Shown here: in pieces, positions 436-19,495 of the stretch | How positions within the stretch are numbered: position 1 is the first letter of the stretch | Layout: every line of letters starts with the position of its first letter | Source: an uncultured virus (IMG/VR IMGVR_UViG_3300036716_001108) | Lineage: Duplodnaviria; Heunggongvirae; Uroviricota; Caudoviricetes | IMG/VR virus record: IMGVR_UViG_3300036716_001108 | DNA: 20,000 nucleotides | Strand: one strand, 5' to 3' | Made by a program: the position numbers and the translations under genes | Notes under the pieces: model-generated | Database searches by the model: none | Seen by the model: only the letters and a program-made list of their open reading frames with translations | Told to the model about the DNA's origin: nothing

Positions 436-3243
436 TTAGAAATTAACACTTAACCCTAAGTTAAAGTATCTTGGTGTACCAAGAAATACTTCAGCATTAT
501 GTGCTGAGTGAGTTTTACTCCCATAGCTATTGTATTGACTATGATCTACTGCATCTTGTACATATGTTTCGTCTAATGCGTTAAACACATGAGCAAATAA
601 AGATATGTCATATCCACTAACTGGTAGTTGATATGAAGCATGTAAGTCCACCTTTGAATAAGATGGTGCTTCCCATACTTGTTCTCTGTCTGCATCTTCA
701 TCTGAACCATCGTATTCACGAGAATCAGGACTCCAATCACTATAGTTCTTATCATAAGAATTCCATAGTGCTGAAATTACTAATCCCTTTACAGGAAAAA
801 TGGTTGCACCAAGTGCATATGAAGTCTGTGGCATATCACCAACATTCAACCCGTCAAGGGCGTATTGATAATCTGTAGTGGTTAAACCAGTTACATTACC
901 GTTTTCATCATATTCATTTGATTGATACTTTCCATGAGCATCACCATCAAACTTCCAAGTACCAAGACTTACTGCTGCATCTAAACGAACCAATTTATGT
1001 AGTTGTGTAGAAGCTTCAATCTCAAGTCCTTGATGTTTTTGTTGAATACCTGTTAAGAAAATGACATCAGTATCACCTGAATCACCTTGTCCTGTGGTTA
1101 CTGCTTTAGTAAGGTTTCTGTCTTTCCAATCTGTATTGTAAACATTTGCCTTAACAGCAAATCTTTCAGATTCGAAATTGACACCAGCTTCTGAACTAAT
1201 GAAACTTTCATTATTTGGATCAGAAGCAACCGTACCATCAAAGTAAATCACATTATCCATGATAGGTGGTTTTTCAACATATCCAATGTTAGCAAAAAGA
1301 CTAACATTATCATCTATGTCGTACATTGCTCCACCTTTGAACTGAGCAGCATAGATAGCATCAGCTTCTATTACTTTATCAGCAACTGAAAAGTGGTCTT
1401 GGTAAGAATATTTAATACTTGATAATCCACCCATACCATATAGATTTAGATTATCTTTACTATAATTACCTTGTACAAATCCACCCAACCAATCAACGGT
1501 AGTTTCATTGTGATAAGCGATTATATCACCTAACCCAACTCTTTTACCATCTGGTGCGTTATCATCAGCAAAATCCAAATAATAATCTCCACCTAATAAA
1601 TCACGAACTTCTCGTGCGTGTTCTATACCTGCGGTTCTCCAATCAATACCTACTTGTAACTTAAACTCATCACTAATATCGTAATTAAGTTTAGAAATTA
1701 CACCATAAGTATTTTGACGATTGATACTATTACGAAGAATACCAACTGATTGATTATTATCAACACCATGTGTTCGTGTAAGAGCTTTCTTATCAACATA
1801 TACTACTGAATCATCTCCAGAATTATATGCTATAAGACTATTCCAATCACGAGTCCAGGGACCACGACCATAATAAAATTTATAGTCATCATCACCAAGA
1901 TTACCATCAGCATCAAATGTAGGAATCTTACCATAAGTTCCTGTTCCACCACCAGAACCACCTGACCAATAAAAGACTGAACTTAAACTTGTCTTATCAT
2001 CTATTGTCCAAAAATGATTTAGATTTACTAATGGTTTGTGAAAGTAGTTTTCTCTTTCGTTTAGATAATCACTTGCGTGTCTATCTTGTAGTCCACTATC
2101 AAAAAGTCCACCTACACCATACATATACCAGTATTGTTTACCTTTATATGATGGGTCAACTGGTGACCAGTTTTGATTAAACTTATGTCCTACATCTGCG
2201 AACTTACCATCTTCACCAAGTGCTTCAGTATCATATCCATCTACACTTGCAGCAAAATCAGCGTCATAAGCACCGATATTCTGTTTGTATAGATTTTGTC
2301 CATGTCGCTGTGGAGCACCGATTGCATATAATTCCAATCGATGGTCAGCATTTACTTGATAACTTGAACCAAAATAATATGCCCAAGCGTCTGTCCATGT
2401 CTTGTCAATGACACCATCACCTGTTTTACGAACTACAGTACCACTTAGGGCGAATTTATCACCAATAAGTCCTGAATTGTAATTCAATGTGGTTTTCAGA
2501 AAACCCCCTGCACCACCTTCCTGTTTAAACTTACCACCTTTTGAAGCGGAAGCAGGATTTGTGATTATGTTCATCGTACCACCAATTGAGGGGGCAGCCA
2601 AGTTAACGGCACTTAATCCACGCTGCATCTGGATAGATTGAGCTGCATCTGCAACTCCATCCCAGTTAGACCAATAGACCCAACCGTTTTCCATATCGTT
2701 TTGTGGAACTCCGTTTATCATTACTGCTACATTCCTCTGATTAAACCCGCGAACATTGATACGGGCATCACCCGCACCCCCACCTTGTTGCGTAGCATAT
2801 ACACTTGGTGTAGTATTTAAAGACATTGGTAAGTCTTGTGAACCAAGACGAAATTCAATTTCTTCTTTACTAACTGTAGTATAAGCAACAGGTGTTTTAT
2901 CATCAGCCCTTGAAGCTAAAACTTCAAGTGCAGACATCTCAAGTGCAGATATTAAAAGTGAGAAGTCTACGGTACTAGCCGTTCCCTCTACCACTTCAAC
3001 CTCTACTGTATGAGATGCATATCCAATTGAAGAAGCTTTAATTGTATAAGTTCCTGCCCCTAAATCAATAGAGTAAGCTCCATCTGCATCAGCAGATGTA
3101 CCTAAATCAGTTCCTTGTACTACAATATCAGCCCCAATCAATGGGTTCTTTTCTGTATCTGTAACTGTTCCGACTACCTGCCCATATAAGAACATTGGCA
3201 TCATCATTGTTAAAAATACAGATATTAGATTATTTTTTTTCAT
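436..3243 (-). CDS. TonB-dependent outer membrane receptor (signal peptide, carboxypeptidase-regulatory-like N-domain, plug, beta-barrel)
   Basis: It has an N-terminal signal peptide and a GTVTD...PLIGA.IVV.GT..G...D.DG.Y N-terminal extension. The plug motif is INVRGF....VAVMINGVP.ND. The protein ends PRYFNLGLSVNF, a terminal-Phe barrel signature. A GAGGAG SD is at 3251-3256. Confidence 0.95.
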   Translation of the reverse strand: MKKNNLISVFLTMMMPMFLYGQVVGTVTDTEKNPLIGADIVVQGTDLGTSADADGAYSIDLGAGTYTIKASSIGYASHTVEVEVVEGTASTVDFSLLISALEMSALEVLASRADDKTPVAYTTVSKEEIEFRLGSQDLPMSLNTTPSVYATQQGGGAGDARINVRGFNQRNVAVMINGVPQNDMENGWVYWSNWDGVADAAQSIQMQRGLSAVNLAAPSIGGTMNIITNPASASKGGKFKQEGGAGGFLKTTLNYNSGLIGDKFALSGTVVRKTGDGVIDKTWTDAWAYYFGSSYQVNADHRLELYAIGAPQRHGQNLYKQNIGAYDADFAASVDGYDTEALGEDGKFADVGHKFNQNWSPVDPSYKGKQYWYMYGVGGLFDSGLQDRHASDYLNERENYFHKPLVNLNHFWTIDDKTSLSSVFYWSGGSGGGTGTYGKIPTFDADGNLGDDDYKFYYGRGPWTRDWNSLIAYNSGDDSVVYVDKKALTRTHGVDNNQSVGILRNSINRQNTYGVISKLNYDISDEFKLQVGIDWRTAGIEHAREVRDLLGGDYYLDFADDNAPDGKRVGLGDIIAYHNETTVDWLGGFVQGNYSKDNLNLYGMGGLSSIKYSYQDHFSVADKVIEADAIYAAQFKGGAMYDIDDNVSLFANIGYVEKPPIMDNVIYFDGTVASDPNNESFISSEAGVNFESERFAVKANVYNTDWKDRNLTKAVTTGQGDSGDTDVIFLTGIQQKHQGLEIEASTQLHKLVRLDAAVSLGTWKFDGDAHGKYQSNEYDENGNVTGLTTTDYQYALDGLNVGDMPQTSYALGATIFPVKGLVISALWNSYDKNYSDWSPDSREYDGSDEDADREQVWEAPSYSKVDLHASYQLPVSGYDISLFAHVFNALDETYVQDAVDHSQYNSYGSKTHSAHNAEVFLGTPRYFNLGLSVNF

Positions 3244-10583: not shown

Positions 10584-11345
10584 TTATGAATTAAATAGAT
10601 CATCGAAAGCATCTGATGTATTAGATACTTTAGACTTTTCCAATTCGGATGAAACAACAGTATCTACTTTAGTAGTAGATTCCTCTTCTTTTGCATCTTC
10701 TTTTGGATTCAACCATTCATTCAAAATCTCTGTCATATCATCATATGACAATTCTTGATAGATTTCTGTAATGTCCTGTTGTTTCTTTACGACCTCTAAG
10801 ACTGCTGGATCATCAGAAATAGGTGTTTGATTTGGTTTAACCCTAATATTTGTTTTAGGGAAACTTGCACCTGTTTCTTCAGCTGATAGAAATTCTACCA
10901 CGACATCACGACCATTTACTGGGTCTGTGATATCACCATAATCTGGGTCAGCAATAATGGAAAGCAACTCTTGATAAACCGTTTTACCAAAACCCCAAAA
11001 CTTCACACCTTGTTTTTCCTCACCTCTAACTATTACTGGAGCAAAAGTTCTCATTTTAGCTTCCAACTTTCGAGAAAGTTGATAGTCTTCTTTACTACCA
11101 CTTCCTCTTAGTTTTTGAGCAAACTCTTCAATAGGGTCTGGTCTACCAAAAGAAATTGGTGAAAGATAAGAACGGTTGTTCAAATTGTAGTGAAAGAATA
11201 ACTCGATAAAAGGATTATCTTTATTAAAAGCGTAAGGTACGATTCTAATTTGTGTTTTTCCTGGTTGTGGTTTCCAAAGACTGGAAGTTCGAGTGTTTGT
11301 GGTTTGTAACTGATTTAAGCGTTTTTTAATTGCATTTAAGTCCAT
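10584..11345 (-). CDS. Single-stranded DNA-binding protein, T4 gp32-like
   Basis: It contains WKP.PG...IRIVP, PF.E.FFHY, KFWGFGKTVY and DITDP.NGRD motifs and an acidic tail ending AFDDLFNS. It lies next to recA and has an AAGGAG SD. Confidence 0.88.
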   Translation of the reverse strand: MDLNAIKKRLNQLQTTNTRTSSLWKPQPGKTQIRIVPYAFNKDNPFIELFFHYNLNNRSYLSPISFGRPDPIEEFAQKLRGSGSKEDYQLSRKLEAKMRTFAPVIVRGEEKQGVKFWGFGKTVYQELLSIIADPDYGDITDPVNGRDVVVEFLSAEETGASFPKTNIRVKPNQTPISDDPAVLEVVKKQQDITEIYQELSYDDMTEILNEWLNPKEDAKEEESTTKVDTVVSSELEKSKVSNTSDAFDDLFNS

Positions 11346-11396
11346 TGTTTAACTCCTTATGTATTATTTGTTATTTTTCATTTGTTAATCAAGTGT

Positions 11397-11414
11397 AACC
11401 TTGATACAATAATA
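11397..11414. repeat. 18-bp direct repeat, copy 1 (AACCTTGATACAATAATA); putative ssb promoter/5' end
   Basis: Identical to 11966-11983. Confidence 0.8.
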
Positions 11415-11459
11415 AGTATCATACCAATAGCTTAAAATGTGATCTATTTTAATTAGATC

Positions 11460-11532
11460 AAAAAAAAAAGGTTCATTTCGTTTTTAAGTCTATTATAAGT
11501 GGAAACTAAAAATCGGTGAGAACCTTTTTTTT
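11460..11532 (-). terminator. Long inverted repeat flanked by A and T tracts; putative, possibly bidirectional, terminator downstream of ncRNA-1
   Basis: A-tract-GGTTC ... GAACC-T-tract outer arms with an internal TTTTTA/TAAAAA pairing. Confidence 0.65.
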
Positions 11533-11534
11533 AA

Positions 11535-11946
11535 ATTTTGGAAATTTTAGGGAATGTAGGATTTGCATACCTACAACTTTCTGCTCAGATTTTATTGCCC
11601 TTGTACCTAACACCCATCAGTTATGATGATTCTTCTCTGTCTGGTTAAGACTATCGAAGTGAGTACAACCTCTGTGTTATTGCCTTATCTCTCTGAGTTT
11701 AGATTGATTCAGCCATGAAAGTAGGATTTCAGTCTTACCCTTACCTACAACAAGGTCTAAAGAATTGCTTCTTTATGTGTTCAGAAAGTACATTAGATGA
11801 TTGATGCCTCAACTACTTAACCATTCGGCCTCGTAGGTTCACCACGAACTCATCTTGGATTACCTTATGGGCTTCTAAAGGATACCCATTGTTCGGTCAA
11901 TTCCATACAGAGTTTATAACTCCCTGTACTTTTCAAAATCCCAAAT
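11535..11946 (-). ncRNA. Large ornate structured ncRNA (ncRNA-1, ~410 nt), family unassigned; size and context reminiscent of ROOL/GOLLD-class phage RNAs
   Basis: No ORF-track ORF here. About ten complementary segment pairs were found by eye, several long-range, plus a 7-bp GCAA tetraloop hairpin and a terminal stem. There is a candidate promoter upstream and a terminator downstream. Confidence 0.7.
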
Positions 11947-11965
11947 TGTCAAAAAACTTTGTATC

Positions 11966-11983
11966 AACCTTGATACAATAATA
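11966..11983. repeat. 18-bp direct repeat, copy 2; putative promoter/5' end of ncRNA-1, overlapping the palindrome TTGTATCAA-CC-TTGATACAA (11959-11978)
   Basis: Identical to 11397-11414, with a 9-bp inverted repeat. Confidence 0.8.
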
Positions 11984-12036
11984 TATATGTATATAAAACC
12001 TCAAAATACATTTTATTTTTATTTTTTTCAAAAAAC

Positions 12037-12477
12037 TTTTGGTGATTCCAGAAGAAGTCGTCTGATCTGATTTCGGACTGCTAGCAGTGATTCTTAATCC
12101 TAATCACCAAAAACTTGTGGTGTCGTGGTTTTCTAACGATTCAAGTCAAAAGACTACCTTTCGGTCAACACCAATTTTGTGGAAAGGTAAGGACTCGAAC
12201 CTTACAGAAGCTTTCAATCGGTATAGTAGATTGATTAAATCTAACACCCTACTCACTCCACCATTATCTTGGTTGATTAATCATCTCAACCTTAACGACA
12301 TACATTCCAATTCTTTGAGATTTCAAATCGGTAGAAATCTCGAAACCACCACTTCGATTTCAAGGACTCGAAGCCCGTCCTAATTCTTGTGCCTTTACGC
12401 CCTTAGACACTTTTCAATCTTATCTCAATCTAATGAGTCGGGCTTTATCTAATTCAATCTTTATCATCCATTTCTTA
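12037..12477 (-). ncRNA. Structured non-coding transcript (ncRNA-2) of tandem modules, including a tRNA-like T-arm unit
   Basis: It lies directly downstream of a consensus sigma70 promoter with no long minus-strand ORF. Consecutive stems are AAGCCCG/CGGGCTT, GAGATTTC/GAAATCTC, GGTTGA/TCAACC, TCAATC/GATTGA, GTAAGG-TTCGAGT-CCTTAC, TGGTGTTG/CGACACCA and TTTTGGTGATT/AATCACCAAAA. Confidence 0.6.
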
Positions 12478-12483
12478 TACTAT

Positions 12484-12512
12484 AATATACAACATATATA
12501 TGAGAAAGTCAA
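12484..12512 (-). promoter_or_regulatory. Sigma70-type early promoter TTGACT-N17-TATATT
   Basis: Near-consensus -35/-10 with an A-rich upstream element. One of three similar copies; it points into ncRNA-2. Confidence 0.85.
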
Positions 12513-12529
12513 GCTTTATTTTCACTTTT

Positions 12530-12778
12530 TTAAGCTAATTCTAACATAGCAAAAGGAACATTATACAACCTACCATTCATATCAACAATAGCCTTCTTGA
12601 TGTTCATCTTAGTGATAACACCAGGAGTTTTCTTTGTCTTCTGAACAACGAATACATTAGCTCCAACAGTTAGTGAAGTTTTACCCAACATAGTCTTACA
12701 ATCATTAACGAATCTTGATAATTCATTTAAATCTGATAGTTTGTCTAATTTCCTTATTTTGTTTTTTATGTTTACCAT
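12530..12778 (-). CDS. Small basic hypothetical protein, possible KOW/SH3-like beta-barrel C-terminus
   Basis: 82 aa with its own promoter and an AAGGT SD. The pattern VGANV.V.......GVITKMNIKKAIV.......NVP..ML suggests the fold (inference). Confidence 0.75.
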   Translation of the reverse strand: MVNIKNKIRKLDKLSDLNELSRFVNDCKTMLGKTSLTVGANVFVVQKTKKTPGVITKMNIKKAIVDMNGRLYNVPFAMLELA

Positions 12779-17347: not shown

Positions 17348-18608
17348 TAAATTTCTCTGTTATGTCTCGCATCTCATGATAGTTATCTCCCATTGATACT
17401 TTAGTTGGATATTTACCATCTTGTTCTAATATACCCTTTACTTTCTTTAGATAATCTAACCCATCTTCCTTATCAAAGTCAAGCAAAAAAGAATCGTAAT
17501 TATACAACACTAATCTACTAGCATACTCTCCATTCTCTATCTCTGGTAATAGAGTATTTAAAATCCTAATGTTATTTTCTGTTTCTAACAATTGTACTTT
17601 ATAATTAAATACTTTATTCGGATTCATAGATTGCATATTTTTCCTGTATATTTTCCGATAATAAATATCTGATTCTATGAAATCCTGTCTTTTATATACC
17701 CCCCACAAGTCCTTTATATACTCGTCTACCATACCAAAGAACGGGTTTTCTTTCATTTCAGTAGTTATACCACCATATAAATACTTGAAAGTTAATGATT
17801 TTCCTTCATCATAACTCAATCCATATGTTTTTGCTAAGTGTTCGTGTGCCGAACCATTCGGGAATTCATAACCAATTAAATCTCCAATCAATCTTGGATG
17901 GTATGCATCAAAATCAAACTCAACCAATACACCACCTTTATGTCTACTGATAAATTGTTTTCTACTACCATCTTTTTTATTGAGAGCTGCAAAGTTAGTT
18001 CCACCAAATCTATTACTTGGTCGACCTGTTGATGTGTATGGATTATACTCTGAATATACCACTTTTTCATCTGTAGTGTATAATCCTTTATCTTCTATTT
18101 TTAATAAAACTTCCAAGATAGTTTGGTCATAATCTTTTTCAAAATTTCTAATTAAGTCTTCTGATAAATTACTAAAGTATTCGGCATGTTTTACTAATGG
18201 AATAACATCATTTACATTTTCTTTCTCATAATGTAATCTATAATTATGATGATGTGCATTTGTTAAATGTTTATCAAAATCATATGGTTCATTTGTTTTC
18301 ATATAATGACACCAATTCAAATCATATACTTCTGTTGAATTTATCATTGAACAATGTTTATAAGATTTTAAATCAGATACAAGTATTGTTGAATTAGTAT
18401 CCCATTGTACTGTATCTTCTGAAAACCTTTCATTATGATGAACTGGTATAATATATTCATTCTGTAAAGTTCTAATATAATAACAAGATACACGATTCTC
18501 TTTTGGATGTTTATTCACATCGGAATACATTTGTAAATATATAAGTGGGTGTTTCCGAATCTTCTTTAAAGCATCGGACAACTTTTCCATTGTATTAATT
18601 ATTATCAT
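17340..18608 (-). CDS. Compact family A DNA polymerase-like protein
   Basis: It contains TSTGRPSN, motif A-like FDFDAYHPRLI, motif B-like KSLTFKYLYG, FNYKVQ..E and motif C-like LYNYDSFLLD, in only 422 aa. Confidence 0.82.
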   Translation of the reverse strand: MIIINTMEKLSDALKKIRKHPLIYLQMYSDVNKHPKENRVSCYYIRTLQNEYIIPVHHNERFSEDTVQWDTNSTILVSDLKSYKHCSMINSTEVYDLNWCHYMKTNEPYDFDKHLTNAHHHNYRLHYEKENVNDVIPLVKHAEYFSNLSEDLIRNFEKDYDQTILEVLLKIEDKGLYTTDEKVVYSEYNPYTSTGRPSNRFGGTNFAALNKKDGSRKQFISRHKGGVLVEFDFDAYHPRLIGDLIGYEFPNGSAHEHLAKTYGLSYDEGKSLTFKYLYGGITTEMKENPFFGMVDEYIKDLWGVYKRQDFIESDIYYRKIYRKNMQSMNPNKVFNYKVQLLETENNIRILNTLLPEIENGEYASRLVLYNYDSFLLDFDKEDGLDYLKKVKGILEQDGKYPTKVSMGDNYHEMRDITEKFNV

Positions 18609-19495
18609 TGACCTATCTTATGTTTAACATAAGTAACTATTTGTTCTGCAATATTTGTTTTACAATATTTATCCATTCCTTCAAATCCTGGTGAAGAGTT
18701 AACCTCACATATACTATACGATTCCCCATCAAATAACAAGTCCACTCCTGCTATATCCAAACCAAGTAATCTTGCAGATTCACCACCCAACCATTCTATA
18801 TCTGCATCAATTTGATATGGAATACCTTCACCACCTCTTGTGATATTAGCTCTGAAATCACCATCTACTGATTGTCTCATCATACAACCAACAACTTTAC
18901 CATTGACAACAAGCACTCTCAAATCTTTACCATGAGAATCTTTAATAAATTCTTGAATGATAATATTGTAACTTGGTTTCGTTATCTCTGCCATTTTCAA
19001 TAATTGTTGTAATTGGTTTCTATTCTCACACAGAAATACACCTGCTCCAAAAGAACCACTAAGAGTTTTTATAATTGCAGGATATCCTATGTTCTTTTCT
19101 ACAAATTCTACATTAATTGGGTGTTTAACCAATAGTGTTTTTGGTACTGGTAGATTTGATTGTCCTAATACTTGTTGTGTGTATAACTTATCTTTAACAT
19201 TATCTATCGAATCACTACCATTAATAAGTATCACTCCCAACCGCTCTAAATGTCGAATAATTGCTTTAATAAAGTAAGTTGTTCCACTACCTGTTCGTGG
19301 TATTACAAAATCTGGAAGTGTTCTCGCCTTACCATCAACCAAAATACTTTTCCTATCATCTCTATCTACAAAAATATCTACAGCGTCTGGGTGCACTACT
19401 CGAACCTTAATTTCTTGTTTCTCAAATTCTTCTATAAGTTTTTGAGTTTCCCAAGACTCTTCTATAGGATTTTTATATAATATCCAACCGTTCAT
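18605..19495 (-). CDS. rimK: RimK-family ATP-grasp alpha-L-glutamate ligase
   Basis: VIPRTG, DKL.TQQ.L...LPVPKT, IIK...GSFGAGV, IQEFI....G.DLRVLVV, FRANI.RGG, GVDLL and EVNSSPGFEG motifs are present. Confidence 0.92.
   Translation of the reverse strand: MNGWILYKNPIEESWETQKLIEEFEKQEIKVRVVHPDAVDIFVDRDDRKSILVDGKARTLPDFVIPRTGSGTTYFIKAIIRHLERLGVILINGSDSIDNVKDKLYTQQVLGQSNLPVPKTLLVKHPINVEFVEKNIGYPAIIKTLSGSFGAGVFLCENRNQLQQLLKMAEITKPSYNIIIQEFIKDSHGKDLRVLVVNGKVVGCMMRQSVDGDFRANITRGGEGIPYQIDADIEWLGGESARLLGLDIAGVDLLFDGESYSICEVNSSPGFEGMDKYCKTNIAEQIVTYVKHKIGQ

What the first reader, a model, noticed from the sequence alone, without database searches (positions are those of the whole stretch)
11535..11946. 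Candidate large ornate ncRNA (~410 nt) with its own promoter and terminator beside the phage replication module
Seen in sequence (+ coordinates): complementary pairs 11925-11932/11785-11792 (8 bp), 11850-11855/11795-11800, 11750-11755/11599-11604, 11692-11697/11584-11589, 11674-11679/11608-11613 and 11900-11904/11551-11555. There is also a 7-bp hairpin with a GCAA (GNRA) loop on the minus strand (11758-11775), a CATCA/TGATG hairpin (11615-11628), and a terminal stem joining ~11537 to ~11945. Some pairs cross each other, which implies pseudoknots. The region has no ORF, an 18-bp repeat/promoter upstream and a terminator downstream. Established: phages carry large ornate RNAs of unknown function (ROOL, GOLLD). 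Inference: this is either a compact relative of those or an undescribed large RNA class. I could not find RNase P, tmRNA or group I/II intron signatures.
Basis: partly seen in the sequence, partly recalled or inferred. Interest (0 to 1): 0.85.

Follow-up and report, generated by a model that had tools for sequence, protein, structure and literature searches.

The report
Fused double manA RNA in phage
The gene-free stretch of a marine phage encodes a real folded RNA of about 400 bases made of two fused copies of the known "manA" RNA that have swapped one helix strand with each other, a natural linked pair from a family recently reported to build RNA-only cages in the test tube.

Summary
The RNA is real, but it is neither ROOL/GOLLD-like nor a new class. 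Rfam manA (RF01745) matches its 3' half (11551-11731, minus strand, 62.5 bits, cut-off 55.2). The whole ~410 nt is conserved: in 48 non-redundant homologs, 71 of 105 pairs show compensatory change, in both halves. The 5' half is a second, diverged manA copy. A manA-core model built without it finds it at the predicted start in 26 of 26 loci (13-32 bits, background at most 12.6), and in distant relatives Rfam itself matches the first copy (L344) or both copies (L463). The copies are locked by strand-swapped P8 helices and two covarying loop contacts, of the kind that a 2026 cryo-EM preprint reports between manA subunits. Single cyanophage manAs carry no second copy (0 of 32). A terminator-like hairpin and variable downstream genes argue for a stand-alone RNA, not a riboswitch. 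Assembly and function are inferred, not shown. This scan noted double manAs before on other DNA (e1-6191320, e1-6209056); I found none in the papers searched.

The parts
11981..12006 (-). Conserved promoter-like element (T-rich/GAG block, then a TATATA run); not shown to be a promoter
   Evidence: Recurs just upstream of the RNA in most of the 46 homolog flanks printed; no sigma70 consensus above chance
11966..11983 (-). 18-bp repeat, copy upstream of the RNA; overlaps a small variable palindrome/hairpin
   Evidence: Exact repeat; sequence varies in homologs while the palindrome is kept
11947..11958 (-). boxA-like element just 5' of the RNA (likeness to the rRNA antitermination boxA is recalled, not tested)
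   Evidence: Motif found in 131 of 136 distinct cores; also upstream of distant double forms
11934..11945 (-). P0 leader strand, pairs with trailer 11537-11549 (terminal stem)
   Evidence: Own partner beats mean cross partner in 44 of 48 and 95% of shuffles in 41 of 48; same stem predicted in distant forms
11721..11929 (-). manA unit 1 (diverged): P1 hairpin 11905-11929, P2 5' strand 11900-11904, P3 11862-11897, P4-P7 junction 11795-11855, P8 strands and L8 hairpin 11750-11789, P9 11721-11748
   Evidence: Covariation in every helix except the L8 stem; model R1 second hit 11742-11899, 19.4 bits, E 0.0065; 26 of 26 homolog loci
11551..11715 (-). manA unit 2: P3 11682-11713, P4-P7 junction 11608-11679, P8 strands 11576-11604, P9 11556-11574, P2 3' strand 11551-11555
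   Evidence: Rfam RF01745 11551-11731, 62.5 bits, E 5e-14; covariation
11782..11789 (-). Swapped helix B: unit-1 P8 5' strand pairs with unit-2 P8 3' strand (11576-11583)
   Evidence: 6 of 8 pairs change on both sides, 98.4% paired; swapped pairing beats own-unit pairing in 48 of 48
11750..11755 (-). Swapped helix A: unit-1 P8 3' strand pairs with unit-2 P8 5' strand (11599-11604)
   Evidence: 4 of 6 pairs change on both sides, 96.9% paired
11693..11697 (-). Loop contact 1: L3 of unit 2 with strand 11584-11588 (L3-L8 type)
   Evidence: 100% paired, 3 of 5 pairs change on both sides (helix 16)
11766..11768 (-).
   Evidence: Three core pairs 48 of 48 paired, with 22, 10 and 5 compensatory cells (helix 10)
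11460..11532 (-). Terminator-like hairpin with U run; carries a conserved internal TTTCCAC motif
   Evidence: 28-nt inverted repeat; stems differ between homologs and stay paired; motif within 90 nt downstream in 109 of 132
11397..11414 (-). 18-bp repeat, copy upstream of the SSB gene, suggesting that gene has its own start
   Evidence: Exact repeat; similar motif before SSB in most printed homologs
10584..11345 (-). gp32-like single-strand DNA binding protein, first gene of the SSB-uvsX-exonuclease-helicase module; usual but not obligatory neighbour
   Evidence: PHROG 1192, E 1.2e-16; downstream of the RNA in 76 of 102 distinct cores

Best explanation
A stand-alone phage ncRNA of about 380-410 nt that arose by tandem duplication of a manA gene and folds as a covalently linked pseudo-dimer. 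SHOWN by comparative evidence: two manA cores; their P8 helices have exchanged strands so the cores are joined head to head; L3-L8-type and L8-L9-type loop contacts are kept by compensatory change; the halves have specialised (unit 2 lost its L8 hairpin, unit 1's L9 became a near-invariant extended loop). INFERRED: it is transcribed from its own promoter, with a boxA-like signal and a leader-trailer stem as in stable RNAs, and ends at the hairpin 11460-11532. INFERRED from the manA cryo-EM preprint: the loop contacts let chains assemble into a closed RNA-only particle, in which the swapped helix supplies a built-in pseudo two-fold link (for example 5 chains = a decamer of cores, 4 = an octamer). 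Most likely role (weakly inferred, about 0.35 on its own): a stable multivalent scaffold or decoy that binds a host protein during infection, not a metabolite switch.
For: Rfam manA on unit 2. 71 of 105 pairs covary, both halves. Unit 1 found by a core model that never saw it: window E 0.0065; 26 of 26 loci at the predicted first base, 15 of 26 at E below 0.05, 10 of 26 over exactly the predicted span, best background 12.6 bits. Five distinct distant double forms with two R1 hits each; Rfam matches the first copy end to end in L344 (47.9 bits, E 4.8e-10) and both copies in L463 (47.3 and 25.9 bits). Swapped P8 beats own-unit P8 in 48 of 48; helix B is also predicted with compensatory changes in four distant forms. 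Downstream gene differs in 26 of 102 and lies on the opposite strand in L344. RNA-library contigs of three studies bridge both units. Preprint 10.64898/2026.07.01.735769 reports L5-L7', L8-L9' and L3-L8' kissing loops building manA pentamers, decamers, octamers and a 60-mer.
Against: Sequence-only HMMs do not show unit 1 to be manA (0 of 48 above the best shuffle), and a model from cyanophage manAs alone finds unit 2 in 26 of 26 but unit 1 only at background level (5 of 26 listed, 8-11 bits): unit 1 of this family is recognised only through unit 2 and the distant forms. R1 E-values are rough and the homologs are related. Candidate L5-L7 contacts are complementary but show no compensatory change, so the contact shared by both cryo-EM pentamers is not shown here. 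Covariation cannot tell a contact within a chain from one between chains. Contigs give no strand, ends or levels; one X3 contig (11419-11610) runs across the terminator-like hairpin. In distant forms my duplex test favoured swapped helix A but not clearly helix B, with crude segment limits.
Confidence: 0.6

Rival explanations
1. Same fused double manA, but it acts as a closed monomer: both loop contacts are satisfied inside one chain, so the fusion replaces oligomerisation and the RNA is a rigid single-chain scaffold.
For: Both covarying loop contacts can be drawn within one chain; unit 2 lacks an L8 hairpin and unit 1's L9 has no complementary partner (alignment); L5-L7 contacts show no covariation.
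Against: The same contact types are intermolecular in single manAs; near-invariant loops (L5 and L7 of both units, L9 of unit 1) remain free for further contacts.
Confidence: 0.25
2. A tandem riboswitch or 5' leader that regulates the SSB-uvsX replication operon, as the original cis-regulatory annotation of manA would suggest.
For: Weinberg 2010 classed manA as cis-regulatory and probable riboswitch; SSB follows on the same strand in 76 of 102; tandem aptamers are known in riboswitches (recalled); the weak alternative helix could be a second conformation.
Against: The terminator-like hairpin lies wholly outside the structure, with no overlapping antiterminator seen; the SSB gene has its own copy of the upstream motif; 26 of 102 have other genes downstream; L344 faces an opposite-strand gene; L345 and S-CREM1 copies are followed by tRNAs.
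Confidence: 0.07
3. The RNA, or its downstream hairpin, serves phage DNA replication (origin transcript, primer or SSB/UvsX-binding RNA).
For: Usual position directly before the replication module; conserved TTTCCAC motif in the downstream hairpin, 109 of 132.
Against: Neighbourhood is not obligatory; only 6 of 43 loci with more distant SSB relatives (74% identity or less) showed the RNA, though many are short; distant double forms lie beside unrelated genes and tRNAs.
Confidence: 0.05
4. A compact relative of ROOL or GOLLD, or an unrelated new class whose 3' half merely resembles manA.
For: Size, pseudoknots and phage origin fit; unit 1 has no Rfam match in this window.
Against: No ROOL or GOLLD match at E up to 10; manA above its gathering score; both halves map helix for helix onto manA.
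Confidence: 0.03

Closest known systems
manA RNA motif (Rfam RF01745; Weinberg et al. 2010, PMC2864571; cryo-EM preprint 10.64898/2026.07.01.735769)
   Same: P1, P2, P3, the P4-P7 junction, P8 and P9 in the same order; same signature sequence at the start of P3 and in P9; L3-L8 and L8-L9 loop contacts; marine phage origin.
   Different: Two copies in one ~410-nt chain instead of one ~190-nt unit; P2 closes both units; P8 strands are exchanged between units; one L8 hairpin lost; L9 of unit 1 extended and near-invariant; flanked by a boxA-like element, a terminal stem and a terminator-like hairpin. The cryo-EM constructs were all under 200 nt.
ROOL and GOLLD RNAs
   Same: Long, pseudoknot-rich, stand-alone RNAs; reported to form RNA-only cages (as summarised in the preprint).
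   Different: No Rfam match; shorter; built from a duplicated manA fold. It may work like them but is not a member.
EGFOA strand-exchanged dimer (same preprint)
   Same: Two RNA subunits linked by exchange of a helix strand.
   Different: There the exchange is between separate molecules at the 3' end; here it is fixed inside one chain at P8 and kept by covariation.

Membership tests
manA (RF01745) | Covariance-model score at or above the gathering cut-off | tested here: met
   Unit 2: 62.5 bits against 55.2; 11 of 20 loci fetched by the SSB protein also pass (3 of those 20 had no RNA match)
manA (RF01745) | Core P3 plus P4-P7 junction with covariation | tested here: met
   Both units; unit 1 recognised by R1 but not by the cyanophage-only model
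manA (RF01745) | Single unit of about 190 nt with P8 closed within the unit | tested here: not met
   Two units; P8 swapped in 48 of 48; of 103 metagenome loci anchored at the 3' end, 72 are full double forms, 31 lack upstream DNA, 0 are single
manA (RF01745) | L3-L8 and L8-L9 loop contacts | tested here: met
   Helices 16 and 10
manA (RF01745) | L5-L7 loop contact | tested here: inconclusive
   Two cross-unit candidates, 94.6% and 100% paired, no change on both sides
manA (RF01745) | Position in the 5' UTR of metabolic genes (proposed cis-regulator) | tested here: not met
   Terminator-like hairpin follows; downstream gene is SSB or varied; opposite strand in L344
manA (RF01745) | Self-assembly into pentamer-based cages in vitro | not testable with these tools
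   Needs SEC-MALS or cryo-EM
ROOL / GOLLD | Match to the Rfam models | tested here: not met
   None at gathering score in the window or at E up to 10 in 11300-12600
RNase P RNA, tmRNA, group I/II introns | Match to Rfam models; tmRNA call by ARAGORN | tested here: not met

The most novel reading that the evidence does not exclude
The double manA is a natural covalent building block of an RNA-only cage made in infected cells: the swapped P8 helix fixes a pseudo two-fold link between two specialised cores, so the particle is built from half as many chains (5 for a decamer, 30 for a 60-mer), and the covarying loop contacts are genetic evidence that manA subunit-subunit interfaces are under selection in nature, much as protein homo-oligomers turn into internally repeated chains.
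Probability: 0.3. Interest if true: 0.87.

Novelty: new variant of a known kind. Interest (0 to 1): 0.64.

Why it matters
manA has been filed as a riboswitch candidate since 2010, and its cages are so far known only from in vitro cryo-EM of single units under 200 nt. A widespread fused double form (136 distinct cores here, plus five distant forms) shows that the family can be a stand-alone gene, that two cores work side by side, and which interfaces evolution keeps. Because the halves differ in sequence, contacts that are symmetric and ambiguous in a homo-oligomer become assignable by covariation and mutable one at a time. It also predicts even-numbered core stoichiometry, a direct cryo-EM test, and shows that Rfam reports only half of these genes.

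Tried and rejected
blastn of the region against 50,697 cultured-phage records gave only short matches to the AT-rich flank; three distant double forms gave no match, so no cultured phage carrying one was found. The nearest cultured phage by UvsX (Microcystis phage Mel-JY01, 55.7%) gave no R1 match, but that search also missed known copies in G002, so the blank is weak. No whole genome is held for the window. One pattern scan of GTDB genomes gave a single locus, a contig with the same phage gene order inside a Pelagibacter MAG: probably a binned phage contig, not host evidence. Sequence-only HMMs and the cyanophage-only model failed to see unit 1. Junction-pattern scans had many false hits: 3 of 8, 7 of 15 and 23 of 24 loci had no R1 match. 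A last scan for relatives of L454 found nothing because my gap was set too long. Contig depth over the RNA was higher than on flanking contigs in 3 of 4 RNA runs (550 against 21-25, 52 against about 2, 69-94 against 2-7; 4 against 2-4 in the fourth), but the runs were chosen for holding 11400-12520 and the tool states that contig depth cannot rank genes, so I do not count it as a measure of expression. A loose end at 11931 in X3 looks like a template-switch adapter (recalled) and may mark a 5' end two bases before P1, but it is one contig at depth 4. The 8-bp helix as a stable element and the GNRA reading were rejected. A sigma70 promoter was not found above chance.

Full report
Setting. The window is part of a large, uncultured, T4-like marine phage: SSB, UvsX, exonuclease, DnaB-like helicase and ribonucleotide reductase genes lie on the minus strand. 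The finding sits in an ORF-free gap (11346-12086 for ORFs of 50 aa or more) directly upstream of the SSB gene. The host is unknown.

Observation. All six complementary pairs, both hairpins and the 18-bp repeat are in the sequence as stated. Alone, the sequence folds only modestly better than shuffles, and on both strands (z -2.39 minus, -2.21 plus). Rfam gives one match in the whole window: manA (RF01745), 11551-11731, minus strand, 62.5 bits against a cut-off of 55.2. Nothing else reaches a credible score in 11300-12600 at E up to 10; ROOL, GOLLD, RNase P, tmRNA and introns are absent. The Rfam match covers only the 3' half.

Homologs. Of 97 first loci (17 by a DNA pattern, 80 by the SSB protein), 53 matched; wherever enough DNA was present both halves matched together. 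The RNA is patchy among phages with more distant SSBs (6 of 43 loci at 74% identity or less, many of them short). Of 216 loci, 159 held the full element and 15 were cut by contig ends; these gave 48 sequences under 95% identity. A scan anchored only on the 3' end gave 103 metagenome loci: 72 full-length long forms, 31 with too little upstream DNA, none of another architecture. In all, 136 distinct cores were collected.

Structure. Mutual information and RNAalifold agreed on the helices. The resulting 105-pair structure is 96.8% paired, 71 pairs change on both sides, no shuffle of 500 reaches the score, and slid controls give 34-44% paired (the structure was derived from this alignment, which favours it on cells paired, but not on the 875 compensatory cells against 75-115 in slid controls). 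The 8-bp helix 11925-11932/11785-11792 is 84% paired with 5 compensatory cells and excludes two better helices; it may at most be a transient fold. The GCAA loop varies and covaries with the loop of the 3' hairpin, so it is a kissing loop, not a GNRA tetraloop. The stem under that loop is the weakest helix (79% paired, ragged alignment). The terminal stem is supported.

The 5' half is a second manA. I fetched 66 non-redundant single manAs of cyanophage type; of the 40 printed, most begin right after a sigma70-like promoter, and all run P1-P2-P3 without any insert. Against these, the 5' half of the long RNA repeats the order P3, P4-P7 junction, P8 strands, P9. A covariance model of the core (R1; 24 unit-2 and 24 single sequences, no unit 1) finds unit 1 as the second hit in the 20-kb window (19.4 bits, E 0.0065; next 10.1) and in 26 of 26 long-form loci, always from the predicted first base, at 13.0-31.6 bits against a best background of 12.6; 15 of 26 have E below 0.05 and 10 of 26 cover exactly the predicted span. 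None of 32 single-manA loci has an adjacent second copy. Against this: sequence-only HMMs give no significant unit-1 match (0 of 48) and a model from single manAs alone sees unit 1 only at background level. Independent support comes from five distant double forms found by a junction pattern (L344, L345, L454, L460, L463): each has two R1 hits, Rfam's own model matches the first copy end to end in L344 (47.9 bits, E 4.8e-10) and both copies in L463 (47.3 and 25.9 bits), all below the cut-off.

How the units are joined. In single manA, P8 is a stem-loop after the P4 junction. Here the P8 5' strand of unit 1 (11782-11789) pairs with the P8 3' strand of unit 2 (11576-11583), and the 3' strand of unit 1 (11750-11755) with the 5' strand of unit 2 (11599-11604). 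Both helices covary strongly, and swapped pairing is more stable than own-unit pairing in 48 of 48 (mean -9.1 and -8.4 against -1.7 and -2.0 kcal/mol). The result is two cores linked head to head: an outer core (P2, P3 and P4-P7 of unit 1, P9 of unit 2) and an inner, circularly permuted core (P9 of unit 1, P3 and P4-P7 of unit 2). RNAalifold predicts the outer swapped helix in four distant forms too; my duplex test there favoured the inner helix and was unclear for the outer one. Two loop contacts covary: L3 of unit 2 with 11584-11588, and L8 of unit 1 with L9 of unit 2. Candidate L5-L7 contacts are complementary but do not covary. Helix names follow my reading of the Rfam structure; I could not see the preprint's numbering figures.

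Transcription unit. Upstream lie a conserved AT-rich element and a boxA-like motif (131 of 136 cores; the likeness to rRNA boxA is recalled; I saw only passages of PMC3177189). Downstream lies a hairpin with a U run whose stems differ between homologs but stay paired. SSB follows in 76 of 102 cores, a count inflated by the SSB-based fetch; other genes follow in 26, and in L344 the next gene is on the opposite strand. Of 21 listed runs, 20 hold part of 11400-12520, 16 on record as RNA, in 12 studies. I laid 4 of them, all as contigs: contigs from three studies bridge both units (X2 11539-12117, X15 11584-11888, X3 11597-11931), X2's contig stops at the predicted 3' end, and one X3 contig crosses the terminator-like hairpin. 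Contigs show presence in RNA libraries, not strand, ends or level.

Mechanism. Shown: a conserved two-core fold with swapped P8 and two loop contacts. Inferred: a stand-alone stable RNA. Inferred from the literature: the preprint 10.64898/2026.07.01.735769 (I read the abstract, introduction, section 8 and passages; supplements closed) reports that single manAs under 200 nt form pentamers, octamers, decamers and a 60-mer through L5-L7', L8-L9' and L3-L8' kissing loops. Two of these three contact types are under compensatory selection here. I therefore favour assembly of the fused pairs into a closed particle with an even number of cores, acting as a multivalent scaffold or decoy; a closed single-chain pseudo-dimer is the main rival, since covariation cannot separate cis from trans contacts. 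A riboswitch role, proposed for manA in PMC2864571 (passages and supplement search seen), fits poorly.

Novelty. Searches for 'manA RNA', 'manA motif', 'RF01745', manA with GOLLD and ROOL, and manA with tandem/covariation/phage terms returned no paper describing a double manA; 'tandem' does not occur in the preprint's main text. The library lacks most subscription journals, and supplements I could not see may bear on this. I also saw passages of PMC9964418 and PMC7779021. This scan's earlier notes record a tandem manA in a jumbo phage, a nested double manA in a marine phage and an enlarged manA; I formed my reading before seeing them, and they are unchecked AI notes, not independent evidence.

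Verdict. Observation confirmed; interpretation partly supported. New variant of a known kind: a fused, strand-swapped double manA. Interest 0.64.

Noticed in passing
window 12035-12480 (-): A second ORF-poor, folded-looking element with its own sigma70-like site (12512-12484), two T-loop-like motifs and a tRNA-like arm not called by ARAGORN or Rfam; z -1.45; near-identical in L005 and L009, rearranged with internal repeats in L011 and L019; covered by X2 contigs. Possibly a separate modular RNA gene.
   Followed up: partly
window 11462-11532 (-) and homologs: The terminator-like hairpin holds an inner stem with a conserved TTTCCAC loop motif (109 of 132 cores), more conserved than a terminator needs; may be a protein-binding site or its own element.
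   Followed up: partly
window 11726-11743 (-): L9 of unit 1 is extended and almost invariant in the main family, with no complementary partner found; a candidate protein- or ligand-binding surface. (The pattern selected on it, but it was already near-invariant.)
   Followed up: no
L454, L460, L463, L344: In the distant double forms both units keep an L8-region hairpin and the L3 loops appear complementary to the other unit's P8 linker, unlike the main family; suggests a less specialised, earlier stage of the duplication.
   Followed up: partly
L069:3230-3325, L095, L096, L381: An extra ~75-nt hairpin domain lies between the promoter-like element and the boxA-like motif, and a different 3' hairpin replaces the usual terminator.
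   Followed up: no
L217-L336 (single manAs): Most of the 40 single manAs printed start immediately after a sigma70-like promoter, and some abut tRNAs (S-CREM1), which also questions the cis-regulatory annotation of the family.
   Followed up: partly
L409 and L343, about 150-330 nt downstream of the RNA: Another conserved non-coding-looking stretch follows the terminator in these two loci.
   Followed up: no
window 436-3243, 1-351, 18605-19495 (-): The phage carries a TonB-dependent-receptor-like gene and a glutamine-synthetase-like gene (both read from the sequence, recalled likeness) and a RimK-like ligase (PHROG 2599).
   Followed up: no
L338: A contig in a GTDB Pelagibacter MAG has the same phage gene order and the double manA; probably a binned phage contig.
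   Followed up: partly
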